A DNA stretch of 25,773 nucleotides from Spongiibacteraceae bacterium (GCA_040508685.1 JBEVMI010000337.1:1-25773); one strand, 5' to 3'; counted from the first letter of the stretch, positions 502 through 25,176 are shown. Numbers and translations are program-made. The notes: a model not told the origin generated them from the letters alone.

Positions 502-625
502 CAGGGCGCGGAAGGTCTTGCGGAAAACGCATGAATACTTCCCTGTAGCTCCGTAGAAACACTTTGCACCCGTTGTTGGGGTGTCCCTGTTTCTACGGTT
601 TCCGCAAGACCTTCCCCACACCCTG
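502..625 (+). repeat. Structured palindromic intergenic repeat (REP/MITE-like), copy 1
   Basis: Perfect 17-bp inverted repeat 510-526/599-615 and inner 11-bp stem 551-561/588-598. Shares identical 17-, 13- and 17-nt blocks with the reverse complement of 18011-18104. Confidence 0.85.
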
Positions 626-12092: not shown

Positions 12093-12335
12093 AGGAAAAA
12101 TCCATGGTGTCGGTTCTGCTGGCATTAAATAGGGATATATCGAATCTGAAAATATTATGCATCTTGTATGGCGCGGAGATTCGTATCGTAACGCTGCGTC
12201 AAAAAGTGGCGCAACCATAACACGCCGCGCCTCTTTATTGTCCGTCCTGCCAATTCGACCCCCAAAACGGTGCGCGCAACACGAAGGAGCCGCAAAAATC
12301 GCTTGGAAAATCAGGGGTGGTGTTTTTTTTGCGGC

Positions 12336-12351
12336 CGGCACGCCAATTGCT
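12336..12351 (+). promoter_or_regulatory. Sigma54 -24/-12 promoter of the activator gene
   Basis: CGGCACGCCAATTGCT: GG at 12337-38, 10 nt, GC at 12349-50; 144 nt upstream of ATG 12495. Confidence 0.7.
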
Positions 12352-12494
12352 TTTTGCTAAGAATCAAAGCGCCGTAAGTAAGGCGGCTTTGATCGACCGG
12401 ACATCGCCAGCGTTAGTCTGACATGGCCGTATGGCATTGTTGCCTCAGCAATGTGCACGCAAGGATAACGAGCACAAACGGATAAAGGTGTGTC

Positions 12495-14102
12495 ATGACC
12501 CTCCATGCCGAACACCTACAGATCAATGATGCGCTGATTCTGGAGGCGACCCGCCTACTGGCGAGCCCATTGCCCCCCGAGCAGAAACTTACCGCGCTGC
12601 TGCGCCTGCTATCGGAGTGGGCGCATCTGCACTGCGGTCGTGTGTTGATGCCCAACTATGCCACCGGCGAACTCCAGGTGGCATTCTCTTATGGCTTGAA
12701 TCGCGGACGGCTGCAGCGCGGCGAATATTCGGTGCCATTCAATCAGGGCCTCACCGGCGCCGTGTGGCGCACCGGTCAGTTGGCGCTGGTCACCGATGTC
12801 ATGGACGAGCCCATTTTCCTGACCCGAATCGCCGAGCCGCTCAATGGCAAAAAGGCCGGTGTCGGATTTATTTCGGCGCCGATTCTGGTCGAAGGCAAAC
12901 CCATCGGTGTGTTATCGGTGCAGCGTCGTGCCGACGAGAGTCGCCTGTACTCGCAGGATGTCGATTTGCTGCGCGTGATCTCCAGCATGATGACATCAGT
13001 ATTGATGTTACTCGAACAGCGCGGGCAGCTATTCGCCGCAGTACCCGAGGGCAGCAACGACAGCGAGATCGAGCGCCTGCACCAGTTGTGCAAAACCTAC
13101 GGCATCATCGGCCACAGCCCGTCGTTGCTGGCCGCGGTCAAACAAATCGACAACGCGAAATTTTCCGACGCGCCGATTCTATTGCTGGGTGAATCCGGTA
13201 CCGGCAAGGAAATGTTTGCGCAGATGGTGCATCGCCTCAGTGCGCGCAGCAATGGTCCATACATCCCGCTCAACTGCGCAGCGATTCCGGAGCAACTGCT
13301 TGAGTCCGAATTATTTGGTCACGAGAAAGGCAGTTTCACCGGCGCGCACCGCAACAAAAAAGGCAAGCTGCAGCAGGCCAATGACGGTACGTTATTCCTC
13401 GATGAGATCGGCGACCTGCAACTCGATTTACAGGTGAAACTGCTGCGCGTATTGCAGGATCGCCAGGTCGAGCCGGTGGGCGGCGACAAACCCGTCAACG
13501 TGAATTTCCGCATTATCACCGCGACCCATATCAATCTGAAAAAGGCGATCGAAACCGGTCGCTTCCGTCTCGATCTATTCTTCCGCCTGAATGTCGTGCC
13601 GATTTACCTGCCACCATTGCGCGAACGCACCGGCGACATTCCGCTGCTGGTCGATTTTTTCCTGCAGCGTTATCAGGGCATGTATCGCCGCAATCTAAAT
13701 ATGGGCGCGGGCACCATGGATCGGTTGTGTCACTACCCGTGGCCGGGCAACATTCGCCAATTGCAGAATGTTATCGAGCGCGCGGTGCTGCAGGTCGAAG
13801 GCCCGTGGATCAGCGATCGCCAGATCGAACAAATTTTGACGGACGAGGGTGGTTTCCCGCTGGGCACGGTTGAAGCGACCGAAGTGAATCGACCGATGCC
13901 GGATATCCTTCCCGTTTCTGCACCGGTGCCCGCACCGGCAGAGGCGCCGCGTTACCGTCCCTATACCCGTGTCGAACACGGCCAACGCCAGCATATCGAA
14001 CACGCCCTGAAACAGACGGGCGGCAATCAAACCCAGGCAGCGGCATTGCTGGGATTAACCCTGCGGCAACTGCGTTATCGATTGATGAAACTGGCGGATT
14101 GA
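12495..14102 (+). CDS. NifA-like sigma54-dependent activator (GAF-AAA+-HTH)
   Basis: N-terminal GAF domain, GESGTGKE, LNCAAIPEQLLESELFGHEKGSFTGA, FLDEIGDL, WPGNIRQLQNVIER, Fis-type HTH GGNQTQAAALLGLTLRQLRYRL. Confidence 0.92.
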   Translation: MTLHAEHLQINDALILEATRLLASPLPPEQKLTALLRLLSEWAHLHCGRVLMPNYATGELQVAFSYGLNRGRLQRGEYSVPFNQGLTGAVWRTGQLALVTDVMDEPIFLTRIAEPLNGKKAGVGFISAPILVEGKPIGVLSVQRRADESRLYSQDVDLLRVISSMMTSVLMLLEQRGQLFAAVPEGSNDSEIERLHQLCKTYGIIGHSPSLLAAVKQIDNAKFSDAPILLLGESGTGKEMFAQMVHRLSARSNGPYIPLNCAAIPEQLLESELFGHEKGSFTGAHRNKKGKLQQANDGTLFLDEIGDLQLDLQVKLLRVLQDRQVEPVGGDKPVNVNFRIITATHINLKKAIETGRFRLDLFFRLNVVPIYLPPLRERTGDIPLLVDFFLQRYQGMYRRNLNMGAGTMDRLCHYPWPGNIRQLQNVIERAVLQVEGPWISDRQIEQILTDEGGFPLGTVEATEVNRPMPDILPVSAPVPAPAEAPRYRPYTRVEHGQRQHIEHALKQTGGNQTQAAALLGLTLRQLRYRLMKLAD

Positions 14103-14139
14103 TTCAGGCCGCCGCCATTTCGCCCTGCTCGATCGGTGG

Positions 14140-14829
14140 TTAAACCGACAGATACGCCGTAATTTTTTTCGCGTCCACATCCTGCCGCATATCTTCGTGG
14201 ACGAAACGTCCGCGTTCGATGACGAACAATCGATCGGCCACTTCCAGCGTAAAACTCAACACCTGCTCCGATACGATGATGGTGATGTCGCGCATCTTGC
14301 GCAGTTCATTCAGTGCCTTCGCAATATCCTTGATGATCGATGGTTGAATGCCTTCGGTCGGTTCGTCGAGCAACAACACTTTCGGATCGGAGGCGAGTGC
14401 ACGTGCAATCGCAAGTTGTTGCTGCTGGCCGCCGGAGAGGTTGCCGCCTTTGCGTTTGCGCATGTCCCACAGCACCGGAAACAGCGCGTAGATGTCGTCC
14501 GAAATTTTCTTCTCCTTGGCGGTCTCTAATCCGGTCTCGATATTTTCAAGCACCGTCAATGTCGAAAAAATCTGCCGCCCCTGCGGCACGAAAGCAACGC
14601 CGTTGGCGACACGCTTGAAGCTGGGCATGCCGCCGATCTCGGTTTCGCCTACCTTGACACTGCCGTGGCGGCTGGGAATGACGCCCATCAGCGATTTGAA
14701 CAGCGTGGTTTTGCCCATGCCATTGCGGCCCATGATCGCAATCGTTTCCTTCGGTTTTACGCTGAAGGAAATATCGTGAATGATTTCGCTCTGGCCGTAG
14801 TTCACACAGAAATTTTCTACGTTCAGCAT
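14140..14829 (-). CDS. urtE: Urea/short-chain amide ABC transporter ATP-binding subunit UrtE
   Basis: GRNGMGKTT, VPQGRQIF, LSGGQQQQLAIARAL, LLDEPTEGIQPSII. Confidence 0.93.
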   Translation of the reverse strand: MLNVENFCVNYGQSEIIHDISFSVKPKETIAIMGRNGMGKTTLFKSLMGVIPSRHGSVKVGETEIGGMPSFKRVANGVAFVPQGRQIFSTLTVLENIETGLETAKEKKISDDIYALFPVLWDMRKRKGGNLSGGQQQQLAIARALASDPKVLLLDEPTEGIQPSIIKDIAKALNELRKMRDITIIVSEQVLSFTLEVADRLFVIERGRFVHEDMRQDVDAKKITAYLSV

Positions 14830-14904
14830 GATGGCGCCTAACCTCTTGAATGCTCGTCAATGAATGTCGTGCGTGGCCGCGTGATCGATCGACGGACCGC
14901 GTTA

Positions 14905-15693
14905 TTAATGACCGAGGTACACCTCGATCACTTTCGGATCTTTTTGTACCGCTTCCATCGAACCTTCTTTCAGAATTTTGCCCTGGTGCAACACGGTGAC
15001 GCGGTGGGCGATGTTTTTGACGAATTCCATATCGTGTTCGATCACGATCACCGAGCGGTTTTTGCAGATACGTTTCAGCAGCTCGCCGGTGAGTTCGCGC
15101 TCGCGTGCGCTCATGCCGGCGACGGGTTCGTCGAGCATCAGCAACTCGGGGTCCTGAATCAGCAACATGCCGATTTCCAGCCATTGTTTCTGGCCGTGGC
15201 TGAGCAGGCCGGCTTCCGTGCTGAGCAGCTCGTCGAGCATGATTTCCTTGGCAACTTCATTCACGCGCGCAATCACTTCGGCGGTGCGTTTGAACGCCAG
15301 TGCACCAAAAACGGTACGGCCTTTGGGAAACGAAATCTCCAGATTCTCGAACACCGTCAGATTTTCGTAGATCGACGGATTCTGGAATTTACGGCCCACA
15401 CCCGCCTGCACGATTTTATGCTCGGACATCTTGGTCAATTCCTTGTCCTTGAATTTGATGCTGCCGCTGGTCGCCTTGGTTTTGCCGCAGATCAAATCCA
15501 GCACCGTGGTTTTACCGGCGCCGTTGGGACCGATCACGACGCGAATTTCATTCTTGTCGATGTACAGGTTGAGATCGTCGACCGCCTTGAAGCCATCGAA
15601 CGAAACGGTGAGTCCTTCGACCGTCAGCACGAAGTCCCGCTGTAGCGATTTGGTACCGATAAAATCATTGGCAGAGATCGGGGGGGTAGCCAT
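14905..15693 (-). CDS. urtD: Urea/short-chain amide ABC transporter ATP-binding subunit UrtD
   Basis: GPNGAGKTT, GRKFQNPSIYENL, LSHGQKQWLEIGMLL, LDEPVAGM, IEHDM, VIEVYLGH. Confidence 0.93.
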   Translation of the reverse strand: MATPPISANDFIGTKSLQRDFVLTVEGLTVSFDGFKAVDDLNLYIDKNEIRVVIGPNGAGKTTVLDLICGKTKATSGSIKFKDKELTKMSEHKIVQAGVGRKFQNPSIYENLTVFENLEISFPKGRTVFGALAFKRTAEVIARVNEVAKEIMLDELLSTEAGLLSHGQKQWLEIGMLLIQDPELLMLDEPVAGMSARERELTGELLKRICKNRSVIVIEHDMEFVKNIAHRVTVLHQGKILKEGSMEAVQKDPKVIEVYLGH

Positions 15694-15726
15694 GGTCGTT
15701 TACTCTGTTAAGACTAATCGGGTCAG

Positions 15727-16956
15727 TCAGGCCGAAGGGGTGGAGGGCATAATGCGGGAGGGCAGGTCTTTGTCTGGCTCCACTTTTTCAACGGGCTTGC
15801 TGGGGGCGCTCGGCGCCGATGGCGGCGGTGTCGACTTGCCGGCTTTCGCTGCACGCCAGGCCAGGAACTTCGGTTTGACGGTTCCGCTGTAAACCCCGGC
15901 GAGACCATTGGGGAACCCCATCACCACGCCGATGAACAGGACACCCATGAAGATCAGCCACAAGGTCGGGAAACTCTCGGAAAAATAGGTCTTGCCGAAG
16001 TTGACCAGCAGCGTCCCGTACACCGCACCGATGAGCGACATGCGCCCGCCCACGGCGGCATAAATCACCATCTCGATCGACGGAATGATGCCGACGAAGG
16101 AGGGCGACATGAAACCTACCTGCAGCGTGAACATCGCACCGCCGATGGCGGAGATGACGGCGCTGGCGACGAAGATGAATACCTTGAAGTTGGCGACGTC
16201 ATAACCCGAGAAACGGACGCGATCCTCGCGATCGCGCATCGCCAGCATTAGCTTGCCGAGTTTGGAGGCGATGATGGCGCGGCCGACCAGAATTGCAGCC
16301 ACCAGCAATCCGCCGTTGATGTAGTACAAGATGTATTTCGCGCTGTCGGTGCGAATATCCCAGCCCAGCAGCGTGCGCAGATCGGTCATGCCGTTGATGC
16401 CGCCGGTGTAACCCTGTTGGCCGACGATGAGGATGGTAAGAATGGAGGCGACGGCCTGCGTCATGATCGAGAAGTACACGCCGGCAACGCGGCGTTTGAA
16501 CATCGCGACGCCGAGGATGTACGCGAAAATTCCTGCCACGGCCGTCACTGCAATCACGGTGAAGGTGAAGCTGTGAAAGGGCTGCCAGAACCAGGGCAGT
16601 TCGGTAATCTGGTTCCAGTCCATGAAATCCGGAATGCCGGGGGTCGACTGGATTTTGGTGTTCTCGGGATTGGATGCTTCGAGTTTCAGAAACATCGCCA
16701 TGCAATAACCGCCGAGCCCGAAGAAAATGCCCTGGCCCAGGCTGAGAATGCCGCCGTAACCCCAGCACAACACCAGCCCCACTGCGACGAACGCGTAAGT
16801 GAGATATTTGCCGACCAGGTTGAGCCGGAAAATATCCATGCTCAGCGGCATTACGATAAAAATAATCGCGGCGAGGATCGCTAAATTAATTGCTCCCTCG
16901 CGCCCACCCAGCCATTTGCCGAGAACTGAATTCATCGCCAACCTCTCTTGCTTCAT
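15727..16956 (-). CDS. urtC: Urea/short-chain amide ABC transporter permease UrtC
   Basis: WGYGGILSLGQGIFFGLGGY, TPGIPDFMDWN, GVYFSIMTQA, RDREDRVRFSGY. SD GGAGG before ATG 16956; ATG 16935 is an alternative start. Confidence 0.9.
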   Translation of the reverse strand: MKQERLAMNSVLGKWLGGREGAINLAILAAIIFIVMPLSMDIFRLNLVGKYLTYAFVAVGLVLCWGYGGILSLGQGIFFGLGGYCMAMFLKLEASNPENTKIQSTPGIPDFMDWNQITELPWFWQPFHSFTFTVIAVTAVAGIFAYILGVAMFKRRVAGVYFSIMTQAVASILTILIVGQQGYTGGINGMTDLRTLLGWDIRTDSAKYILYYINGGLLVAAILVGRAIIASKLGKLMLAMRDREDRVRFSGYDVANFKVFIFVASAVISAIGGAMFTLQVGFMSPSFVGIIPSIEMVIYAAVGGRMSLIGAVYGTLLVNFGKTYFSESFPTLWLIFMGVLFIGVVMGFPNGLAGVYSGTVKPKFLAWRAAKAGKSTPPPSAPSAPSKPVEKVEPDKDLPSRIMPSTPSA

Positions 16957-17019
16957 TAAGACCTCCCCTCCCCGGCAGGAAGAGGGGACTAGCGAACACC
17001 GTGATCCAAACAATGCGAT

Positions 17020-17940
17020 CTATTTGCGCACACGAATGTTGAACAGACCTTCCGGGCGCGCCATCAGGATGCCGACCACGGCCACCAGCGTGATGACTTT
17101 CGCCATCGAACCGCTGAGGAAGAAGCCGAGAATCGATTGCGCCTGGGCGATCGAGAACGCCGATGCGAACGTGCCGATCAGGCTGCCTGCGCCGCCGAAC
17201 ACGACGACGAGGAAGGTATCGACGATGTACTGCGAACCGCTGGTCGGGCCGGTGGATGCGATCGTGGTGAACGCTGCACCTGCCACGCCGGCAATGCCGC
17301 AGCCGAGCGCGAAAGTCATGCGGTCAACCTTGCCGGTATCGATGCCGACGGCGCCAGCCATTGCCCGATTCTGCGTAGTCGCGCGCACTTTCAAGCCCCA
17401 GCGCGAACGCTGCAGGAAAAAGAACACGGCGCCGGAGAGCACGATGGTGAGGCCCAGCACGAACAGGCCGTTGATCGGAATATCGAGGCCTTCGCGCAAT
17501 GTCCACGATCCCATCAGCCAGTCCGGCAGCACCGCGCTGACTTCACGCGCACCGAATGCCGAGCGGAAAATCTGTTGCATGATCAGGCTCAGGCCCCAGG
17601 TCGCCAGCAGCGTGTCGAGTGGACGTTTGTATAAATATCGGATAATAAAAAACTCGACGAGCCATCCAACCGCAAAGGCGATGAGAAAGGCGGCGATGAC
17701 GGCGAGAAAAAAGTAGCCGTTGAGCAGCACGGGAAATTTTTCCGCGAGCATCGACATGGCGACGGTGCTGTAGGCACCGATCGTAAGAAATTCGCCGTGG
17801 GCCATATTGATGACGCCCATCTGGCCGAAAATAATGGCCAGTCCCAGCGCCATCAACACGAATACCGAAAACAGACTGATGCCGGCGAAGGCCTGCATCG
17901 AAAAATTATCGATTAATTCTGCGGCTGAGTAACCGTCCAT
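17020..17940 (-). CDS. urtB: Urea/short-chain amide ABC transporter permease UrtB
   Basis: LGLAIIFGQMGVINMAHGEF, LYKRPLDTLLATWG, TFALGCGIAGVAG, VDTFLVVVFGG. Confidence 0.92.
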   Translation of the reverse strand: MDGYSAAELIDNFSMQAFAGISLFSVFVLMALGLAIIFGQMGVINMAHGEFLTIGAYSTVAMSMLAEKFPVLLNGYFFLAVIAAFLIAFAVGWLVEFFIIRYLYKRPLDTLLATWGLSLIMQQIFRSAFGAREVSAVLPDWLMGSWTLREGLDIPINGLFVLGLTIVLSGAVFFFLQRSRWGLKVRATTQNRAMAGAVGIDTGKVDRMTFALGCGIAGVAGAAFTTIASTGPTSGSQYIVDTFLVVVFGGAGSLIGTFASAFSIAQAQSILGFFLSGSMAKVITLVAVVGILMARPEGLFNIRVRK

Positions 17941-18010
17941 CTTTAATTCCTCTGGCAGCTACGGTGGTTCCAAAAATATTGCGAAATTTCAAACAGCTCA
18001 GATTGAGCGG

Positions 18011-18104
18011 GTGTCGGGGTTCTCTTGCGGAAACCGTAGGAACAGGATGTTTCTACGGAGTCTCAGGGATGAGGGATGCGTTTTCCGCAAGAGAACCCCG
18101 ATGC
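18011..18104 (-). repeat. Structured palindromic intergenic repeat, copy 2 (between urtA and urtB)
   Basis: Perfect 20-bp inverted repeat 18014-18033/18082-18101 and inner stem 18034-18044/18048-18058. Homologous to 502-625 in the opposite orientation. Confidence 0.85.
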
Positions 18105-18141
18105 CTGCGAGGCAACACCAACGCAGGCGTCGACTAAACAA

Positions 18142-19425
18142 TCACTGATAACCTTTCGGGAACGGGTTCGGCTCGATCAGATCAGACTCGAAAACCACTT
18201 TCGCCTGACCATCCTTTTGCCATACCGCGATACGCGCCTTGCTCCACAGGTGATGATTTTCGTGGAGTTTCACGTAACCTTCCGGTGCGGTTTTCAGTTC
18301 GAGGCCGGGCGATGCAGCTACCACTTTATCCACATCGAAGCTGCCCGCTTTCTCGACAGCTGCTTTCCACAACCACGGACCGAGATAGCCGGCCTGGGTC
18401 ACGTCGCCGATCACGCTGTCAGCACCGTATTTCGCTTTGAACGCAGCAACGAATGCCTTGTTGTTGGCGTTGTCGAGCGACTCGAAATATTTCATCGAGG
18501 AATACAGGCCTTCAACGTTGGCACCACCGATACCCAGAACTTCGTCCTCGGTTACGGAAATGGTCAACATCGGCTGTTTCTTGAAGGTGAGGCCGGCGGC
18601 ATTCAATTGCTTGAACCACGCCACGTTGGAGCCACCGACCACGGCGCCGAATACGAGATCAGGTTTTTTCAACTTGATCTTGTTGATCAGCGAACTGAAC
18701 TGCGTGCTGCCGAGCGGATAATATTCTTCGCCGACCACAGTGCCTTTCAGAACGTTTTCGATGTGTTTGCGGGCAATCTTCATCGACGTGCGCGGCCAGA
18801 TGTAATCCGAGCCCACCAGATAGAAGGATTTGGCACCGAGCGTTTTGCTGGCCCAGTCGAGACTGGCGAGAATTTGTTGCGTGGCTTCCTGGCCGGTGTA
18901 GAAAACGTTCTTCGACTGTTCGAGACCTTCATAGAACGTCGGATAGTAGAGCAGGCCGTTTTTCTGCTCGAAGATTGGCAGCACCGCTTTGCGTGATGCC
19001 GAGGTCCAGCAGCCGAATACTGCGGCGACTTTATCTTTCTCCAGAAGTTTTTTCGATTTCTCAGCAAAGGTTGGCCAATCGGATGCACCGTCTTCCTGAA
19101 TCACTTCGATTTTGCGACCAAGGATACCGCCCATCGCATTGATTTGATCGATGGCGAGTTTTTCTGCTTCCACGGCACCGGTCTCGCTGATCGCCATGGT
19201 GCCGGTGATCGAATGCAAAATACCGACGGTGACTGTTTTATCGGTGACCGCGAGACCCGTGGTCATTACTTTTGACGTTGGCAAATCGGCAGCAAAAGCT
19301 CCACCTATCGCACCGAATGTCAGCGAAGCGCCCAACATCAGCGCCGACCACAGCGCGCGACGTCGATGCTTTCGTTGAATCGAGTGGCCTTGAGTTGAAA
19401 GGGAATGATTTTTTTCTAAACGCAT
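18142..19425 (-). CDS. urtA: Urea/short-chain amide ABC transporter substrate-binding protein UrtA
   Basis: VGILHSITGTMAISE, EDGASDWPTFAEK, FGCWTSASRKAVLP, YPTFYEGLEQS, LVGSDYIWPRTS. SD GGAGG before ATG 19425; signal peptide present. Confidence 0.93.
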   Translation of the reverse strand: MRLEKNHSLSTQGHSIQRKHRRRALWSALMLGASLTFGAIGGAFAADLPTSKVMTTGLAVTDKTVTVGILHSITGTMAISETGAVEAEKLAIDQINAMGGILGRKIEVIQEDGASDWPTFAEKSKKLLEKDKVAAVFGCWTSASRKAVLPIFEQKNGLLYYPTFYEGLEQSKNVFYTGQEATQQILASLDWASKTLGAKSFYLVGSDYIWPRTSMKIARKHIENVLKGTVVGEEYYPLGSTQFSSLINKIKLKKPDLVFGAVVGGSNVAWFKQLNAAGLTFKKQPMLTISVTEDEVLGIGGANVEGLYSSMKYFESLDNANNKAFVAAFKAKYGADSVIGDVTQAGYLGPWLWKAAVEKAGSFDVDKVVAASPGLELKTAPEGYVKLHENHHLWSKARIAVWQKDGQAKVVFESDLIEPNPFPKGYQ

Positions 19426-19515
19426 TGTTGCTTCCTCCACCAGAGAAACGGCCTTGAGACGAAAATTAAACGTCCATCGCAATAGCAGCGCGTTGATGCG
19501 CTCTGATTCTGTAAG

Positions 19516-19531
19516 AGCAACAGGCGTGCCA
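19516..19531 (-). promoter_or_regulatory. Sigma54 -24/-12 promoter of urtABCDE
   Basis: The minus strand reads TGGCACGCCTGTTGCT, a perfect TGGCACG-N4-TTGCW match, about 90 nt upstream of urtA. Confidence 0.88.
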
Positions 19532-19670
19532 CCAAAAACGGGGCGCGTCAGAAAAGCAAAAATAAGAAAGGAAGCCGCTAAATCCGCAGGCGGCGCTGAA
19601 AATTTGATCTACTTTTGAGTGGCCGCAAATATTTAACAAATGCGAATAAAACATCTGCAGGTCGACGAGT

Positions 19671-19747
19671 TTGTCATTGGCACGGCATTGTCATTTGACA
19701 AAGGTGACATTGTTAAACGCCGGCCCCGCCAATTGTCATGTGCGACC
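19671..19747. promoter_or_regulatory. Putative upstream activator sequences (TGTCA/TGACA cluster)
   Basis: TGTCA at 19672, 19689 and 19734, TGACA at 19696 and 19705, including the dyad TTGTCATTTGACAA (19688-19701). The cluster lies between the two divergent sigma54 promoters. Confidence 0.55.
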
Positions 19748-19816
19748 TCCTCGCAAAGTTGTGCCTTCTTTATTAACGCAGCGCCATTACTGAAAATATT
19801 CCGCAAATATTCGCGC

Positions 19817-19832
19817 TGGCACACTCCGTGCT
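19817..19832 (+). promoter_or_regulatory. Sigma54 -24/-12 promoter of the fmdA operon
   Basis: TGGCACACTCCGTGCT: GG at 19818-19, 10 nt, GC at 19830-31; about 50 nt upstream of fmdA. Confidence 0.75.
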
Positions 19833-19883
19833 CTTCTCCCCGACATAAACATCCCATTGACCGCTGTCGCGAGGAACATGGAA

Positions 19884-21119
19884 ATGACGGAAACGCTAAT
19901 CAAAGTTGATCTGAAGAAACCGGCTACCGAGCAACCCTGCATCCACAACCGCTGGCATCCGGATATTCCGATGGTGGCGTGGGTGAAGCCGGGTGCGGAT
20001 TTTGTCGTCGAATGTGTGGACTGGACCGGCGGCCAGATCGGCTACAACGATTCCGCGGATGACGTGCGCGACGTCGACCTGACCAAGGTGCATTATCTTT
20101 CCGGTCCGATTGGTGTCGAAGGTGCCGAGCCCGGCGACCTGCTGGTGGTCGACATCATGGATATCGGCACGCTACCGACTTCCGAATGGGGTTTCACCGG
20201 TTTATTCGCGAAGGAAAATGGCGGTGGTTTTCTCACCGAACATTTTCCCGATGCCCACAAGGCGGTGTGGGATTTGAAGGGGATCTACGCCACTTCGCCA
20301 CAAATTCCGAACTGCAGTTTTGCCGGCATCATGCATCCGGGGCTGATCGGTTGCCTGCCGTCGAAAGCGTTGCTCGATACCTGGAACAAACGCGAAGCCG
20401 CATTGATTGCGACCGATCCCAACCGCGTGCCGCCGCTGGCCGCACCGCCGTGCGCCGACACCGCGCACATGGGTGCGATGAAACCGGAAGCCGCGAAAAT
20501 TGCGGCGCTGGAAGGTGCGCGCACCGTGCCGCCGCGCGAACACGGTGGCAACTGCGACATCAAGGATCTGACGCGCGGCTCCAAGGTATATTTCCCGGTG
20601 TATGTGAATGGCGGCGGCCTGTCGATGGGCGACCTGCACTTCTCGCAGGGCGACGGTGAAATCACTTTCTGCGGCGCCATCGAAATGGCCGGCTGGATTC
20701 ACATCAAGGTCGACATCATCAAAGGTGGGGTCGCCAAATACGGTGTGAAGAATCCAATTTTCAAACCAAGCTCACTCAAGCCCAATTATCAAAACTATCT
20801 GATCTTCGAGGGCATCTCGGTCGACGAATCCGGCAAGCAGTATTACCTCGACGTGCATGTGGCCTATCGCCAGGCCTGTCTCAACGCCATCGAATACATG
20901 AAAAAATTCGGTTACAGCGGTGCGCAGGCGTACACCATTCTCGGCACCGCGCCGGTGCAGGGACATATCAGCGGCATCGTCGATATTCCGAATGCGTGCG
21001 CGACGTTGATGCTGCCGACTGAAATTTTCGATTTCGACATGATGCCGAACAAGGATGGCCCTATCAAACACGTCACCGGCGGTATCGATATTCCGGTTTC
21101 TTACTGGAAGGACAAATAG
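19884..21119 (+). CDS. fmdA: Formamidase (acetamidase/formamidase family)
   Basis: HNRWHPDIP, VHYLSGPIGVEGAEPGDLL, PPREHGGNCDIK, GDLHFSQGDGEITFCGAIEM, VDIPNACATL. SD GAGGA 8 nt before ATG 19884. Confidence 0.93.
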   Translation: MTETLIKVDLKKPATEQPCIHNRWHPDIPMVAWVKPGADFVVECVDWTGGQIGYNDSADDVRDVDLTKVHYLSGPIGVEGAEPGDLLVVDIMDIGTLPTSEWGFTGLFAKENGGGFLTEHFPDAHKAVWDLKGIYATSPQIPNCSFAGIMHPGLIGCLPSKALLDTWNKREAALIATDPNRVPPLAAPPCADTAHMGAMKPEAAKIAALEGARTVPPREHGGNCDIKDLTRGSKVYFPVYVNGGGLSMGDLHFSQGDGEITFCGAIEMAGWIHIKVDIIKGGVAKYGVKNPIFKPSSLKPNYQNYLIFEGISVDESGKQYYLDVHVAYRQACLNAIEYMKKFGYSGAQAYTILGTAPVQGHISGIVDIPNACATLMLPTEIFDFDMMPNKDGPIKHVTGGIDIPVSYWKDK

Positions 21120-21151
21120 TTTTTTTGGGGAAAAGCTCGTTACGAGTGTTC

Positions 21152-21194
21152 GCAGGCCGATTGACAAGGCAGCGTTGATCGGCCTGCATTTTTT
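21152..21194 (+). terminator. Intrinsic terminator-like hairpin between fmdA and fmdB
   Basis: 10-bp perfect stem GCAGGCCGAT/ATCGGCCTGC, extendable with G-U pairs, followed by ATTTTTT. Confidence 0.55.
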
Positions 21195-21235
21195 ATCCCA
21201 AATCTATTTCAGTGATTTCATAGGAGGATTCCGTC

Positions 21236-21559
21236 ATGCCGGTCTATGACTTTCGCTGCAGCGAATGCAGCGGTGAATTCAGCGAATTGCGACCAATGGC
21301 ACGCAGTGGCGAACCGTCGACGTGCCCCGACTGTGAGGGTTACGCACCGCGTCTGATCAGTGCGCCCCGGCTGGCGGTACTGACAACGACACAGCGCAAG
21401 GCGCATCAGGTCAACGAACGCAGCGCGCATGAGCCGCGCGCGATGAAGAAACATGTCTGCAGTTCCGGCTGCTCGCACGGGCCTGCGAAAGGCGAGGAAA
21501 CGAAGACTGGATTACGACAATCCAAATCCACCAGCCGTCCCTGGATGATCGGACATTAA
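21236..21559 (+). CDS. fmdB: FmdB-family zinc-ribbon protein
   Basis: MPVYDFRCSEC...TCPDC...RLISAP, AHQVNERSAHEP, HVCSSGCSH. Lies downstream of fmdA; SD AGGAGG. Confidence 0.88.
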   Translation: MPVYDFRCSECSGEFSELRPMARSGEPSTCPDCEGYAPRLISAPRLAVLTTTQRKAHQVNERSAHEPRAMKKHVCSSGCSHGPAKGEETKTGLRQSKSTSRPWMIGH

Positions 21560-21562
21560 TAT

Positions 21563-21674
21563 CTCCCCCTGCGAAGTAGGGGGAGTGCCCGCAGGGCGAG
21601 GGGGTCAGGTGTGATGAGCTTGATGACCCCTCCGTCTCGCTATCGCGAGCCACCTCCCCTACTTCGCAGGGGAG
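21563..21674. repeat. Palindromic double-hairpin intergenic element (REP/RIME-like)
   Basis: Left arm CTCCCCCTGCGAAGTAGGGGGAG (21563-85) and right arm CTCCCCTACTTCGCAGGGGAG (21654-74) are each hairpins and are near-perfect reverse complements. Internal GAGGGGGTCA/TGACCCCTC pair. Confidence 0.8.
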
Positions 21675-21699
21675 GCAAAACCAACGAGAGAACGCGATC

Positions 21700-22737
21700 A
21701 TGATGCATGGCGATATTTCCAGTAGCAAAGACACCGTCGGCGTCGCCGTCGTCAACTACAAAATGCCGCGACTGCACACCAAGGCCGAGGTGCTCGACAA
21801 CGCGCGCAAAATCGCCGATATGCTGATCGGCATGAAAAGCGGTTTGCCCGGCATGGATCTGGTGATCTTTCCGGAATACAGCACGCACGGCATCATGTAC
21901 GACGCCAAGGAGATGTACGACACCGCGGCGGCCGTACCCGGTGAGGAAACCGAAATTTTCGCGGCCGCGTGCCGCAAAGCCAAAGTGTGGGGCGTATTTT
22001 CGCTGACCGGCGAACGCCACGAAGAACATCCCAACAAGGCGCCCTACAACACGCTGATCCTGATGAACGATCAGGGTGAGATCGTACAGAAATACCGCAA
22101 GATCATGCCGTGGGTGCCGATCGAAGGCTGGTATCCGGGCAACTGCACTTATGTATCCGACGGTCCGAAAGGCCTGAAAATCAGCCTGATTATTTGCGAC
22201 GACGGCAACTACCCGGAAATCTGGCGCGACTGTGCCATGAAAGGCGCAGAGCTGATCGTGCGCTGTCAGGGTTATATGTATCCGGCAAAAGATCAGCAGG
22301 TGTTGATGGCGAAGGCGATGGCCTGGGCCAATAACAGTTATGTCGCAGTCGCCAACGCCGCGGGTTTTGATGGCGTCTATTCGTATTTTGGCCACTCGGC
22401 GATTATCGGATTCGATGGCCGCACGCTCGGCGAATGTGGTGAAGAAGATTACGGCATTCAATACGCCGCGTTATCGAAATCGTTGATTCGCGACGCGCGC
22501 AAAAACATGCAGTCGGAAAATCATTTATTCAAACTGCTGCACCGCGGTTACACCGGCATGATCAATTCGGGCGACGACGTGCGCGGTGTCGCGGCGTGCC
22601 CGTACGATTTTTATCGCAGCTGGATCGAAGACCCGGAAGGCACCCGCGCCAAAGTCGAAGCCATGACGCGGTCGAGTGTCGGCACCGATGAATGCCCGAT
22701 CGAGGGAATACCGACCGAGGCGCCCGCTCATCGTTGA
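21700..22737 (+). CDS. amiE: Aliphatic amidase (nitrilase superfamily)
   Basis: [25 protein letters not shown]. Catalytic triad in FPEYS, YRKIMPW and ICDDGNYPE. Closely resembles Pseudomonas AmiE. Confidence 0.95.
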
Positions 22738-22756
22738 GCGGGCGAGGGGGGATTTG

Positions 22757-23557
22757 GTGAATTCTCTCAGTGAATACCTGATCGCCGACGAGCCGCACTA
22801 CTATGCCACCGGCAGCGAGATTGCCGTCTTCGAACAGGCCCATCGCGAAAAATTGCCATTGATGTTGAAAGGCCCGACCGGCTGCGGCAAAACGCGGTTT
22901 GTCGAATACATGGCGTGGCGCTTGCAGCGACCGCTGATTACGATTGCGTGTCACGAAGACATGACCGCGGCCGATCTGGTCGGTCGCCATTTGCTAAACA
23001 ACGACGGTACGCACTGGCAGGACGGCCCGCTGACGCGTGCAACACGAGCCGGTGCGATTTGTTATCTCGATGAAATCGTCGAGGCACATCAGGATACGGT
23101 GGTGGTCATTCATCCGCTGACCGATGCGCGGCGTCTGTTACCGCTTGAACGCAATAATGAACTGGTGCATGCGCATCCCGATTTTCAGTTGGTGGTTTCC
23201 TACAATCCCGGTTATCAGCATTTCGCCAAACAACTGAAGGAATCAACCAAACAGCGTTTTGTCGCGCTCGATTTTCAATGGCCGGAACCGGCGGTGGAAG
23301 CGCAGATCATCGTCGCTGAGGCCGACGTTGATAACCATCTGGCGGAAACCCTGGTCACCCTCGCCGCGCATTCCCGCAATCTGGTGGGCAAGGGGCTCGC
23401 CGAAGGTTTTTCGACGCGCATGCTGATTCACGCCGCGCGGCTCGCACGCAATGGCCTCGGTTTGCGCGATGCCTGTTTGTCGGCGCTGATTTTGCCGATA
23501 ACCGATGACGTTACCTTGCGCGCCACGCTGCTGCAGCTGTTTGAAACCTGTCGCTGA
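22757..23557 (+). CDS. CbbQ/NirQ/NorQ-family MoxR-type AAA+ ATPase
   Basis: EPHY, LMLKGPTGCGKTRFVEYMAW, EDMTAADLVGR, DGPLT, CYLDEIVEA, HPLTD.RR, SYNPGYQ, STKQRF, STRML. GTG 22757 follows a G-rich SD. Confidence 0.92.
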   Translation: MNSLSEYLIADEPHYYATGSEIAVFEQAHREKLPLMLKGPTGCGKTRFVEYMAWRLQRPLITIACHEDMTAADLVGRHLLNNDGTHWQDGPLTRATRAGAICYLDEIVEAHQDTVVVIHPLTDARRLLPLERNNELVHAHPDFQLVVSYNPGYQHFAKQLKESTKQRFVALDFQWPEPAVEAQIIVAEADVDNHLAETLVTLAAHSRNLVGKGLAEGFSTRMLIHAARLARNGLGLRDACLSALILPITDDVTLRATLLQLFETCR

Positions 23558-25176
23558 TGAACGCCGAGACCGACCAAATCCAGCGCAGCGCGGAGCTCTG
23601 GTTTGCGGCATGGTTAGGTGAACGCGCGTCGTGTCAGTGGATCGATTGCCAAACGCCCGCGTCTGCCCGCGCATCGTTCGCGCAGAATAAATTCCGGTTG
23701 CCGCGCCATAATCCGGCGCATCACCGCGCCAGTGTCGCGCACTTTTATGCGCACGCACGATTCGGCGGTGCACCGTTCGCGGTCGGAAAATTTCGACCGA
23801 TTCAAATCGTACTGACTTCCCTTTTCGAGGATGCCCGCGTCGAGCAGCTCGTGTTGCGCGAACGACCGGGGTTGCGCCGTTTATGGGCGCCCTATATCGA
23901 CGCCCTCCATCTCCAGACGCGGACGAAGGAGAGCGACGATGTTGCGGCGCTGTTGCGTCGGCTGGCGGTAGCATTGTTCGATCCCGCCTGGCCGAACAAC
24001 AATCCGTGGGTCAATAAAGCGCGCCGACTTTTTTATGCGCGCGAATCGGAATGGCAGAATCCGGCGTTGAGTCGCGAGCTGGGCAATCTGCTCGGCAACG
24101 ACCTCGGCCAGATGCGGCTGCAATTCAACTGGAAAAGTTATGTCGTCGAACCCGCGTATCGCGACGATCATCGCGGCCTGTGGATTGACGACGACGAGCC
24201 ACCGCCGCTGGAAGAACAACAAGCCGGCATATGTCCCGACCGCGAGGCCACGCGCATTGCCGCGGCACCGATCGCGGGCGACACGTCGGCACGGCGCAGC
24301 GAAATCGGTGACTGGTTGATCGCCGGTGCAGCGCCGGTCCTCGCGCCGGCAACCTTGCCGGAGTGGGACTATGCCCGCCAGTTCTATCGCGCTGCGTGGG
24401 TCAGTGTGCGCGAGCAGGAGCCACCGCGGGAAGCGCCACCAGAGGCTGTCGCGCGACTGCTGGAAATGTCCGACGCGGCGCTACCGTCATATCGTGCGCG
24501 ACAACACGCTGCGAATAGGCGTCGCCATCGGCGCGGGCACGACGGCGATTCGCTCGACCTGGATGCCTGCATTCGCAATATCGCTGATCGTCGTCTCGGC
24601 CAGCATGCGGACATGCGAATTTATCGGCGCTTGATCGAGCAGGAGCAGCCGGGGTCGCTGCTGATTTTAATTGATACTTCGCTGTCGATGGGCGCGCCAC
24701 CGGCGCTAGCCACCATGGCCGACGCGACAGTGCGCGCCGATCCATCTGCACTGGACCATGCAAAAGTCGCCACGTTGCAGATGGTCGAACACACCACACG
24801 CAGCGGCAATCGTTGCGCCATCTATGGCTTTTGTTCGGACGGCCGGCACGCATTGCACATGGCGCCGGTCAAAAATTTTTCCGACAATTATTCGAGTTGG
24901 AAAATTCTTACGCGACTCGCCGGCCTCAGCGCAGCCTATTCCACACGTCTTGGCGGCGCGCTGCGTTACGCCAGAAAATTACTTGCTGATGAGCCCGCGG
25001 CTGCGCACGAAATTTTTGTGTTCACCGATGGTGAAGCCAGCGACATTGATACGGTTGATCCACGTTATTTGCGCGAGGATGCATGCCAGGCCGTGCACGA
25101 ACTACAGCGTGCGGGAATCGAAGTTGAGTTCATTAATGCCAGTGCCCCTGCGGGAATAAAATCGATAAAAATTTGA
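23557..25176 (+). CDS. CbbO/NorD-like von Willebrand factor A (MIDAS) adaptor protein
   Basis: FEDARVE, YRDD..LW, PEWDY, GDSLDLDA, MIDAS DTSLS...STRLG...TDG. TGATG overlap with the ATPase gene. Confidence 0.85.
   Translation: MNAETDQIQRSAELWFAAWLGERASCQWIDCQTPASARASFAQNKFRLPRHNPAHHRASVAHFYAHARFGGAPFAVGKFRPIQIVLTSLFEDARVEQLVLRERPGLRRLWAPYIDALHLQTRTKESDDVAALLRRLAVALFDPAWPNNNPWVNKARRLFYARESEWQNPALSRELGNLLGNDLGQMRLQFNWKSYVVEPAYRDDHRGLWIDDDEPPPLEEQQAGICPDREATRIAAAPIAGDTSARRSEIGDWLIAGAAPVLAPATLPEWDYARQFYRAAWVSVREQEPPREAPPEAVARLLEMSDAALPSYRARQHAANRRRHRRGHDGDSLDLDACIRNIADRRLGQHADMRIYRRLIEQEQPGSLLILIDTSLSMGAPPALATMADATVRADPSALDHAKVATLQMVEHTTRSGNRCAIYGFCSDGRHALHMAPVKNFSDNYSSWKILTRLAGLSAAYSTRLGGALRYARKLLADEPAAAHEIFVFTDGEASDIDTVDPRYLREDACQAVHELQRAGIEVEFINASAPAGIKSIKI

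What the first reader, a model, noticed from the sequence alone, without database searches (positions are those of the whole stretch)
12336..25176. Self-contained sigma54 amide-nitrogen scavenging regulon: NifA-like activator, Urt transporter, two unrelated amidases, no urease
Seen: three correctly spaced -24/-12 promoters (activator gene at 12336, urtA at 19516 on the minus strand, fmdA at 19817), a GAF-AAA-HTH activator, urtABCDE, fmdA, fmdB and amiE. No urease or nif gene is in the window. Known: Urt-like FmdDEF of Methylophilus transports short-chain amides and urea, FmdA hydrolyses formamide, and AmiE hydrolyses C2-C4 amides. Inference: the transporter is probably an amide importer. Control by a NifA-like GAF enhancer protein would replace the AmiC/AmiR antitermination of Pseudomonas.
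Basis: partly seen in the sequence, partly recalled or inferred. Interest (0 to 1): 0.6.

Follow-up and report, generated by a model that had tools for sequence, protein, structure and literature searches.

The report
Sigma-54 formamide/amide nitrogen-scavenging regulon
A soil bacterium carries a known type of gene cluster for importing small amides such as formamide and releasing their nitrogen, but here it is switched on by its own sigma-54 activator through a binding site not described before, and the "urea" transporter has lost a residue that urea binding needs.

Summary
Window 12.3-25.2 kb holds a GAF-AAA+-HTH sigma-54 activator and divergent urtEDCBA and fmdA-fmdB-amiE-cbbQ-vwa operons. 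It has three -24/-12 sites, all conserved in related loci.

- **Activator site.** A module, TGACA-W-TGTCA-N4-TGTCA, lies between the divergent promoters. It is not NifA's TGT-N10-ACA. It follows the activator family even where gene order differs or the activator is unlinked.
- **"NifA-like".** This holds for architecture only. The protein scores below the NifA cut-off and no nifH was found.
- **"No urease".** This holds for the 78%-complete MAG. The genome does have a second, canonical urtABCDE and a urea carboxylase/allophanate hydrolase pathway.
- **Amide import.** The fmd-linked UrtA has Phe where Gln144 sits, a residue needed for urea binding. The switch is present in every fmdA-linked binding protein examined and absent from canonical paralogues.
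- **"Self-contained".** Not supported. The only perfect module elsewhere in the assembly lies upstream of an FdhF/YdeP-type molybdoenzyme gene. One relative has activator-fdhD-ydeP in a row, and others add a porin.

The cluster type is already published (Bradyrhizobium, Pseudomonas, Methylophilus). I found no description of the dedicated activator or its site. This scan has noted similar loci on other DNA.

The parts
12258..12274 (+). Conserved block CCAAAAYGGTGCG about 60-95 bp upstream of the activator gene's -24 element. It may be a degenerate NtrC-type half-site.
   Evidence: It aligns between the window and L069, and similar blocks occur in L020 and L023. Its score against TGCACC-N5-GGTGCA is only 8/12, so this reading is speculative.
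12336..12351 (+). Sigma-54 promoter of the activator gene (CGGCAC-N5-TTGCT). The predicted transcription start is near 12362 and the leader is about 133 nt.
   Evidence: A -24/-12 site sits at the equivalent place upstream of the activator gene in ten related loci.
12495..14102 (+). Bacterial enhancer-binding protein of 535 aa: GAF sensor, AAA+ sigma-54 interaction domain (GSFTGA loop, Walker A GESGTGKE) and a C-terminal Fis-type HTH.
   Evidence: The nearest solved GAF domain is Aquifex Nlh1. The family is narrow, about 50 database clusters at >=47% GAF identity.
14140..17940 (-). urtE (14140-14829), urtD (14905-15693), urtC (15727-17013) and urtB (17020-17940): the ATPases and permeases of the Urt-like ABC importer.
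   Evidence: All score above the TIGR03408-03411 cut-offs.
18011..18104 (.). Small repeat element in the urtA-urtB gap.
   Evidence: Partial copies occur at window 586-609 and on contigs C38, C372 and C429.
18142..19482 (-). UrtA-like periplasmic binding protein of the fmd-linked subfamily. The likely start is the ATG at 19428. Phe replaces urea-binding Gln144 (motif YPTF) and Trp replaces Phe192 (motif DYIW).
   Evidence: Residue roles are taken from PMC10392092.
19516..19531 (-). Sigma-54 promoter of the urt operon (TGGCAC-N5-TTGCT, a perfect consensus).
   Evidence: It is conserved in nine related loci.
19672..19715 (.). Upstream activator site shared by the two divergent promoters. It holds five TGTCA/TGACA half-sites. 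The module TAACAATGTCA-CCTT-TGTCA lies on the minus strand, has one mismatch to the family module, and is inverted relative to its relatives.
19817..19832 (+). Sigma-54 promoter of fmdA (TGGCAC-N5-GTGCT).
   Evidence: It is conserved in nine related loci.
19857..21119 (+). fmdA, a formamidase of the FmdA_AmdA family. The likely start is the ATG at 19878 or 19884, after GAGGAA.
   Evidence: NF045496 scores 760 bits against a cut-off of 500, and PF03069 scores 617 bits.
21152..21187 (+). A 14-bp G+C-rich hairpin followed by a T run, directly after fmdA. It could be a partial terminator or an mRNA stabiliser.
21236..21559 (+). fmdB, a small CxxC zinc-ribbon protein.
   Evidence: TIGR02605 scores 52.6 bits against a cut-off of 31.3, and PF09723 matches.
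21560..21680 (.). REP-like long inverted repeat between fmdB and amiE.
   Evidence: Copies lie on C350 and C320, and twice in the second urt operon on C122.
21700..22737 (+). amiE, an aliphatic amidase of the nitrilase superfamily.
   Evidence: NF009802 scores 726 bits against a cut-off of 427.
22757..25176 (+). CbbQ/NorQ-type AAA+ gene followed by a VWA-domain gene (23557-25176). The AAA+ ORF opens at 22676; GTG 22757, after GAGGGG, is the more likely start.
   Evidence: The same amiE-cbbQ-vwa module is found in L081.

Best explanation
This is a formamide / short-chain-amide nitrogen-scavenging regulon under a dedicated sigma-54 activator.

The GAF-AAA+-HTH protein (12495-14102) binds a composite site, TGACA-W-TGTCA-N4-TGTCA with extra half-sites (19672-19715). 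The site lies 100-165 bp upstream of two divergent -24/-12 promoters. From there the protein activates two units:
1. The Urt-like ABC importer, urtABCDE. Its binding protein has an amide-type pocket (Gln144 to Phe), so it probably imports formamide or acetamide rather than urea.
2. fmdA, with read-through into fmdB-amiE-cbbQ-vwa. These hydrolyse formamide and C2-C4 amides to ammonium plus acid.

The activator gene is itself sigma-54 dependent, so a second input is needed. That input may be nitrogen status, or, in relatives that carry the module upstream, autoactivation. The regulon probably reaches beyond the window to an FdhF/YdeP-type molybdoenzyme on contig C106 that could dispose of the formate produced.

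Shown here: the gene content, the promoters, the module, their co-conservation and the residue switch. Inferred: binding of the module by this protein, the effector of the GAF domain, the transported substrate and the role of YdeP.
For: - **Promoters.** All three -24/-12 sites are conserved in the related loci.
- **Module.** An exact 20-mer module lies 115-140 bp upstream of the fmdA promoter in 7 relatives. The palindromic core is present in L081 and in L057, whose activator is only 49% identical.
- **Synteny.** The order activator-urtEDCBA-fmdAB is kept in L019, L020, L023, L025, L072, L074 and L075. It is rearranged but still linked in L057.
- **Action in trans.** In G401 and G402 the activator is unlinked, yet the promoters and the module persist at urt-fmd.
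- **Specificity of the module.** In 13 fmdA loci from other families of the class, without this activator, none has the core. Six of them still have sigma-54 sites upstream of both fmdA and urtA.
- **Genome scan.** The module scan gives two outliers only, the window and C106.
- **rpoN** is present.
- **Binding pocket.** YPTF/DYIW is found in all 10 loci with the activator, in 10 of 10 fmdA-adjacent UrtA of the class sample and in the 120 best database homologues. Canonical paralogues and solved urea-binding UrtA keep YP[VI]Q. Mutation of Gln144 strongly reduced or abolished urea binding (PMC10392092). AmiC, an acetamide sensor, aligns Thr-Pro at this place.
- **A separate urea route exists.** The genome has a canonical urt operon and urea amidolyase genes elsewhere.
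Against: - There is no expression, binding or transport data; no RNA run holds the locus.
- The window's own module has one mismatch and is inverted.
- The activator's own promoter in the window has no module upstream, so what turns it on is unknown. No NtrC equivalog was found above cut-off in the 78%-complete assembly.
- A strong hairpin with a T run after fmdA may uncouple fmdB-amiE-cbbQ-vwa from the fmdA promoter.
- On C106 no convincing -24/-12 lies between the module and the ydeP start.
- YdeP was not found in four other genomes that carry the activator.
- The M. methylotrophus FmdDEF system is reported to take up urea as well as amides (PMC10781810).
Confidence: 0.65

Rival explanations
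1. The divergent promoters are ordinary NtrC-dependent nitrogen-limitation promoters, as at many urt operons. The adjacent GAF activator controls something else, or is redundant.
For: - Sigma-54 promoters upstream of urtA and fmdA occur in six class-sample loci that lack this activator.
- Sigma-54/NtrC control of urt is common (PMC13207237).
- One such locus, L106, has a near-consensus NtrC site.
Against: - No NtrC-type palindrome scoring >=9/12 is in the window's urtA-fmdA gap.
- The TGACA-W-TGTCA module was seen only in genomes that carry this activator, and it follows the activator's own promoter in L018, L019, L021 and L024.
- No NtrC equivalog was found in the assembly, though the assembly is incomplete.
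Confidence: 0.1
2. The transporter is a urea importer, or a dual urea/amide importer, and the locus is mainly a urea-scavenging unit with accessory amidases. This is what is reported for FmdDEF of Methylophilus.
For: - All five subunits pass the Urt equivalog models.
- Seven of the eight conserved urea-contact residues are kept.
- M. methylotrophus fmd genes are induced by urea as well as formamide (PMC10781810).
- The genome can degrade urea through urea carboxylase.
Against: - Gln144, which gives two of the six hydrogen bonds to urea and is required for binding, is Phe in every fmd-linked member.
- A separate canonical UrtA, 39% identical and with Gln kept, exists in the same genome.
Confidence: 0.2
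3. The activator is primarily a formate-responsive regulator, an analogue of FhlA. It senses the product formate and controls formate oxidation by YdeP/FdhD. The fmd-urt genes would be a formate-yielding branch of that regulon.
For: - In L024 the activator gene is followed at 80 bp by fdhD and a YdeP-type oxidoreductase.
- The only perfect module elsewhere in the own assembly lies upstream of a YdeP-type gene.
- FhlA is a sigma-54 activator with an N-terminal formate-binding domain that controls fdhF (PMC11291172).
Against: - The FhlA model scores 257 bits against a cut-off of 830, and only over the AAA+ domain.
- YdeP was not found in four other genomes with the activator, whereas urt-fmd is linked in most.
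- No clean sigma-54 promoter is seen for ydeP on C106.
Confidence: 0.15

Closest known systems
fmdCABDEF of Methylophilus methylotrophus (as summarised in PMC10781810)
   Same: It has an FmdA formamidase, the small FmdB protein and a Urt-like binding-protein-dependent importer for short-chain amides. Relatives of the window also carry a porin gene next to the activator. The cluster is induced under nitrogen need.
   Different: No sigma-54 enhancer-binding protein is described there; FmdB is called a putative positive regulator. The window adds amiE-cbbQ-vwa and lacks an adjacent porin.
urtABCDE-fmdA-(fmdB)-amiE clusters of Bradyrhizobium japonicum (blr0968-0973; PMC3098086) and Pseudomonas veronii Yu15 (PMC13209695)
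   Same: The gene set is the same, and so is the published inference that the Urt-like transporter carries amides rather than urea. The binding proteins are 83-84% identical to the window's and share the YPTF/DYIW signature.
   Different: No dedicated activator, site or residue-level signature was reported. In the class sample most such clusters lack this activator and the TGACA-W-TGTCA core.
NifA and the NifA-like homologues (Nlh1/Nlh2 of Aquifex aeolicus)
   Same: The GAF-AAA+-HTH order matches. The GAF domain is nearest to the Nlh1 GAF (4G3K, 44.6 bits), then to a NifA GAF (8JRC, 26 bits). The activator gene is itself sigma-54 dependent, as is nifLA of Klebsiella (from my own knowledge).
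   Different: The protein scores below the NifA equivalog cut-off. The target site is TGACA-W-TGTCA, not TGT-N10-ACA. No nif genes were found, and there is no Cys-rich interdomain linker.
AmiC/AmiR control of amiE in Pseudomonas aeruginosa
   Same: An AmiE-type aliphatic amidase is controlled in response to amides. AmiC belongs to the same binding-protein fold as UrtA and aligns Thr-Pro where the window's protein has Thr-Phe.
   Different: No AmiC/AmiR pair is at the locus. Control here is at transcription initiation by sigma-54, not by antitermination. One ANTAR protein exists elsewhere, on C268.
FhlA, the formate-binding sigma-54 activator of fdhF and hyc in E. coli (PMC11291172)
   Same: It is a sigma-54 activator with an N-terminal formate-binding domain, linked to an FdhF-family molybdoenzyme.
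   Different: The window's protein is not an FhlA orthologue (257 bits against 830). FhlA has a much longer N-terminal region (from my own knowledge). The main linked genes here are urt and fmd.

Membership tests
Bacterial enhancer-binding proteins (sigma-54 activators) | Sigma54_activat AAA+ domain with Walker A/B motifs and the GAFTGA-type loop | tested here: met
   PF00158 scores 231 bits. GESGTGKE and the loop variant GSFTGA are present.
Bacterial enhancer-binding proteins (sigma-54 activators) | rpoN in the genome and -24/-12 promoters at the target genes | tested here: met
   rpoN lies on C183. Three -24/-12 sites are conserved in relatives.
NifA (nif-specific activator) | Score above the TIGR01817 equivalog cut-off | tested here: not met
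   The score is 401.3 bits against a cut-off of 528.85.
NifA (nif-specific activator) | TGT-N10-ACA upstream activator sequences at the target promoters | tested here: not met
   None occurs in the window's urtA-fmdA gap or in three of four relatives; one incidental match occurs in L023. The conserved site is TGACA-W-TGTCA.
NifA (nif-specific activator) | Nitrogenase genes in the genome | tested here: not met
   No nifH scored above cut-off; the best hit is 42 bits against 394. The assembly is 77.6% complete.
Urt urea ABC transporter | All five subunits score above the TIGR03407-03411 cut-offs | tested here: met
   UrtA scores 521, UrtB 394, UrtC 434, UrtD 382 and UrtE 328 bits, each above its cut-off.
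Urt urea ABC transporter | Urea-contact residues of UrtA conserved (W120, S122, Y141, Q144, E146, Y190, N246, S274; PMC10392092) | tested here: not met
   Seven are kept, but Q144 is Phe. The variable F192 is Trp. The canonical paralogue on C122 keeps Gln.
Urt urea ABC transporter | Genomic linkage to urease or urea amidolyase genes | tested here: not met
   The operon is linked to fmdA and amiE. The urea carboxylase and allophanate hydrolase genes are on C27, and the canonical urt operon is on C122.
Fmd formamide-utilisation cluster (Methylophilus type) | FmdA formamidase, the FmdB zinc-ribbon protein and an adjacent Urt-like importer | tested here: met
   NF045496 scores 760 bits, TIGR02605 scores 52.6 bits, and urtABCDE is divergent from fmdA.
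Fmd formamide-utilisation cluster (Methylophilus type) | FmdC-type outer-membrane porin in the cluster | tested here: not met
   No porin is in the window, and tblastn found none in the own assembly. Porin genes are divergent from the activator in L018, L024 and L075.
Fmd formamide-utilisation cluster (Methylophilus type) | Induction by formamide or urea and repression by ammonium | not testable with these tools
   No RNA run holds the locus.
amiEBCRS amidase operon (Pseudomonas aeruginosa type) | AmiC sensor and AmiR antiterminator next to amiE | tested here: not met
   Neither is at the locus. The single ANTAR protein lies on C268. tblastn with UrtA found no AmiC-like hit beyond C428 and C122.
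FhlA (formate-responsive activator) | Score above the NF011958 cut-off | tested here: not met
   The score is 257 bits against 830, over the AAA+ domain only.

The most novel reading that the evidence does not exclude
Two linked claims.
1. The GAF activator defines an undescribed sigma-54 regulon. It would sense formamide, or its product formate, through the GAF domain and bind the TGACA-W-TGTCA-N4-TGTCA site. It would couple amide import, formamide/amide hydrolysis, a porin (in relatives) and formate oxidation by a YdeP/FdhF-type molybdoenzyme.
2. The 'UrtA' proteins with the Gln144-to-Phe switch (YPTF/DYIW) are formamide/acetamide-specific binding proteins. They are highly conserved, at 83-84% identity from this organism to Pseudomonas and Bradyrhizobium, and are annotated as urea transporters wherever a source names them.
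Probability: 0.45. Interest if true: 0.55.

Novelty: new variant of a known kind. Interest (0 to 1): 0.42.

Why it matters
- **Annotation.** Formamide and small amides are little-studied nitrogen sources. The transporter linked to formamidase is annotated as a urea transporter in the database records that name it. One residue switch, Gln144 to Phe, separates the fmd-linked binding proteins from true urea binders. It gives a cheap rule for re-annotation and a direct experiment: ITC with the wild type and a Phe-to-Gln variant.
- **Regulation.** The dedicated GAF activator and its defined 20-bp module give a testable small sigma-54 regulon. They could also serve as a formamide- or formate-responsive switch for engineering, since formamide is being developed as a selective nitrogen source.
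- **Metabolism.** The link to a YdeP/FdhF-type enzyme suggests a physiological role, disposal of formamide-derived formate, for a molybdoenzyme family whose function I believe is poorly known (from my own knowledge).

Tried and rejected
The contexts of Halothiobacillus diazotrophicus and other distant activator homologues (P0036, P0040, P0046) could not be read.
- No RNA holder was listed for the locus.
- The weak Urease_alpha hits on C106 and C36 (24-31 bits) are generic amidohydrolases, not urease.
- The third cluster of TGTCA/TGACA words, on C342, lies inside a coding region and fails the module scan. I treat it as chance.
- NtrC-site scans were inconclusive. Only an 8/12 match lies upstream of the activator promoter, and nothing clear appears at most class-sample loci.
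- The search for a -24/-12 element between the C106 module and the ydeP start found none. The only candidate with a good -12 (TGGTGT-N5-TTGCT, 2219-2204) lies upstream of the module.
- YdeP was not found at E<=1e-50 in G402, G403, G103 or G404.
- The PDB comparison did not separate the two UrtA paralogues by overall score. Only residue-level comparison did.
- The paper on amidase-linked binding proteins for amino acid amides (bioRxiv 10.1101/2024.02.22.581678) concerns a different fold family, SBP_bac_5, and does not apply.
- No paper was found for PDB entry 8TG1.

Full report
**1. What is there**

- The activator at 12495-14102(+) is 535 aa with GAF, Sigma54_activat (231 bits), an AAA lid and HTH_8.
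- urtE, D, C, B and A on the minus strand (14140-19482) all score above their equivalog cut-offs.
- fmdA scores 760 bits against a cut-off of 500.
- fmdB is a zinc-ribbon protein.
- amiE scores 726 bits against 427.

Upstream of the activator lie unrelated genes for a GST and a PTPS-like protein.

**2. The promoters**

- CGGCAC-N5-TTGCT at 12336(+)
- TGGCAC-N5-TTGCT at 19531-19516(-)
- TGGCAC-N5-GTGCT at 19817(+)

The raw count in the window is not above chance: 4 hits at <=1 mismatch against about 3 expected. The placement is informative. Three of the four hits sit in the three relevant upstream gaps, correctly oriented. The whole assembly has only 90 sites of this quality on both strands.

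Conservation is the stronger argument. I fetched loci that encode relatives of the activator at 65-83% identity, plus one at 49% (L057). A -24/-12 element stands upstream of urtA, of fmdA and of the activator gene in the related loci examined. rpoN is present on C183.

**3. The activator site**

The 285-bp gap between the divergent promoters holds a cluster of TGTCA/TGACA half-sites (19672-19715).
- Seven relatives carry an exact 20-mer, TGACATTGTCA-N4-TGTCA, 115-140 bp upstream of the fmdA -24 element.
- L081, and the distant L057 upstream of its urtA promoter, keep the palindromic core TGACAATGTCA.
- In the window the module is on the other strand and has one mismatch (TAACA...). It is therefore inverted, which an enhancer-type site tolerates.
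- NifA's TGT-N10-ACA is absent.

Three observations tie the module to this activator.
- Where a porin gene is divergent from the activator gene (L018, L019, L021, L024), one to three cores lie between the two sigma-54 promoters. This implies autoactivation there.
- In G401 and G402 the activator is unlinked from urt-fmd, yet the promoters and the module persist at urt-fmd.
- Thirteen fmdA loci from other families of the class lack this activator. None has the core, although six have good sigma-54 sites before both fmdA and urtA.

Only G103 among the 18 FmdA-positive genomes of the 400-genome class sample carries an orthologous activator. The activator family is narrow, about 50 database clusters at >=47% GAF identity, followed by a drop to 36%.

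**4. "NifA-like"**

Only the domain order is NifA-like.
- The NifA model scores 401 bits against a cut-off of 529.
- The nearest solved GAF domain is Aquifex Nlh1, not NifA.
- The sigma-54 contact loop reads GSFTGA.
- No nifH was found.

**5. "No urease"**

No urease alpha or ureG was found, with the caveat that the assembly is 78% complete. The genome does have other routes for urea.
- A complete second urtABCDE lies on C122.
- A urea amidolyase set lies on C27: UAAP1, UAAP2, urea carboxylase at 1841 bits, and allophanate hydrolase.

The two UrtA proteins are only 39% identical.

**6. What the transporter carries**

The crystal and mutagenesis study of Prochlorococcus UrtA names the urea contacts: W120, S122, Y141, Q144, E146, Y190, N246 and S274. 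Gln144 gives two hydrogen bonds, and its mutation strongly reduces or abolishes binding (PMC10392092).

In the alignments the window's protein keeps seven of these residues. It has Phe at 144 (YPTF) and Trp at the variable 192 (DYIW).

| Group | Residues at the 143-144 place |
|---|---|
| All ten fmd-linked proteins of the activator-bearing loci | TF |
| 10 of 10 fmdA-adjacent UrtA in the class sample | TF |
| The 120 best database homologues (81-99% identity; Pseudomonas, Bradyrhizobium, Marinobacter, Nitrogeniibacter) | TF |
| Canonical paralogues (C122, L018, L072, L075, second copy in L109) | VQ |
| Solved urea binders (8HIC, 7S6E, 7S6F) and the uncharacterised 8TG1 | IQ or VQ |
| AmiC, the acetamide sensor | TP |

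Replacing an acceptor for urea's second NH2 with a hydrophobic side chain is what a pocket for formamide or acetamide would need.

The inference itself is not new. It was made from gene context for B. japonicum blr0968-0973 (PMC3098086) and for P. veronii (PMC13209695). M. methylotrophus FmdDEF is described as an amide and urea uptake system (PMC10781810).

**7. "Self-contained"**

A scan of the assembly with the module, which was derived from relatives, gives these counts.
- One perfect hit, at C106:2145(-).
- The window's own site, at one mismatch.
- One site at two mismatches.
- A background of 79 sites at three mismatches.

The core TGACANTGTCA occurs exactly once in the assembly, at the same C106 place. 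It lies 75-160 bp upstream of a gene for an FdhF/YdeP-family molybdopterin oxidoreductase (TIGR01701, 717 bits).

Independently, in L024 the activator gene is followed at 80 bp by fdhD and a YdeP-type enzyme. That enzyme is 42% identical to the C106 protein.

Formamidase yields formate, so a formate-oxidising partner makes metabolic sense and favours formamide as the main substrate. Three things limit this link.
- No convincing -24/-12 lies between the C106 module and the ydeP start.
- Four other genomes with the activator have no such enzyme.
- Porin genes belong to the set in relatives but were not found in this assembly.

**8. Open points in the circuit**

- The activator's own promoter in the window has no module upstream. 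A block, CCAAAAYGGTGCG, is shared with L069, L020 and L023 and resembles half an NtrC site. No NtrC equivalog was found in the assembly.
- A 14-bp hairpin with a T run follows fmdA.
- A REP-like inverted repeat separates fmdB from amiE.
- Whether amiE-cbbQ-vwa ride on the fmdA transcript is therefore unknown. The amiE-cbbQ-vwa module recurs in L081.
- The effector of the GAF domain is unknown. Candidates are formamide or other amides, formate (by analogy with FhlA; PMC11291172) and 2-oxoglutarate (as for NifA; from my own knowledge).

**9. Verdict**

- The gene cluster is a known kind.
- Sigma-54 promoters in front of urt and fmd genes are common in this class.
- The variant part is a dedicated GAF activator with its own conserved site.
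- The Gln-to-Phe signature of the fmd-linked binding proteins is a useful, testable refinement.

In seven searches of the paper library I found no description of the activator or its site. Earlier notes of this scan report similar loci on other DNA.

Noticed in passing
G000 contig C106:2-2035(-) and 2110-2194 (locus L076): A gene for an FdhF/YdeP-family molybdopterin oxidoreductase is preceded by the assembly's only exact TGACANTGTCA and a perfect 20-mer activator module. No clean sigma-54 promoter lies between the module and the start codon.
   Followed up: partly
G000 contig C122 (L016:1357-7153) and C27 (L017:497-7569): A second, canonical urtABCDE operon keeps Gln144 and has a UrtB with a long N-terminal extension. 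A full urea amidolyase set is also present: UAAP1, UAAP2, urea carboxylase and allophanate hydrolase. The MAG can therefore use urea without urease.
   Followed up: yes
L016:1170-1205 (upstream of the canonical urtA on C122): The sequence TTGACGCATTGTCGACATTGTCA resembles the activator module, with a core at one mismatch (CGACATTGTCA). It failed the <=3-mismatch module scan. Whether the canonical urea transporter is cross-regulated is open.
   Followed up: partly
window 21560-21680 and 18011-18104: Two small repeat families sit in intergenic gaps of the operons. The fmdB-amiE inverted repeat has copies on C350, C320 and twice in the C122 urt operon, upstream of urtA and between urtA and urtB. 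The urtA-urtB element has partial copies at window 586-609 and on C38, C372 and C429.
   Followed up: partly
window 21700-25176; L081:5359-8897; L106:16710-19433: amiE is followed by a CbbQ/NorQ-type AAA+ gene and a VWA gene in the window and in L081. In L106 amiE is followed by a VWA gene. This is a chaperone-type pair attached to an amidase rather than to Rubisco or NO reductase.
   Followed up: partly
L075:150-9609; L072:1-2460; L018:937-2103: In relatives a canonical urt operon lies directly upstream of the activator-urt-fmd unit, together with two porin genes (Porin_O_P / ExtI-like) and a hybrid histidine kinase plus LuxR-type response regulator. This forms a larger urea/amide uptake island.
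   Followed up: partly
L070:55-6988: The closest activator relative with flanking DNA (82% identical) is not followed by urtE. An aldo/keto reductase and a phosphonate-type ABC transporter follow instead. Linkage to urt-fmd is therefore not universal, even among near kin.
   Followed up: partly
record titles of L018, L021, L022, L025, L026: Several MAGs that carry near-identical gammaproteobacterial-type loci are labelled Verrucomicrobiaceae, while others with the same locus are labelled Spongiibacteraceae or Gammaproteobacteria. This may reflect mislabelling or mis-binning.
   Followed up: no
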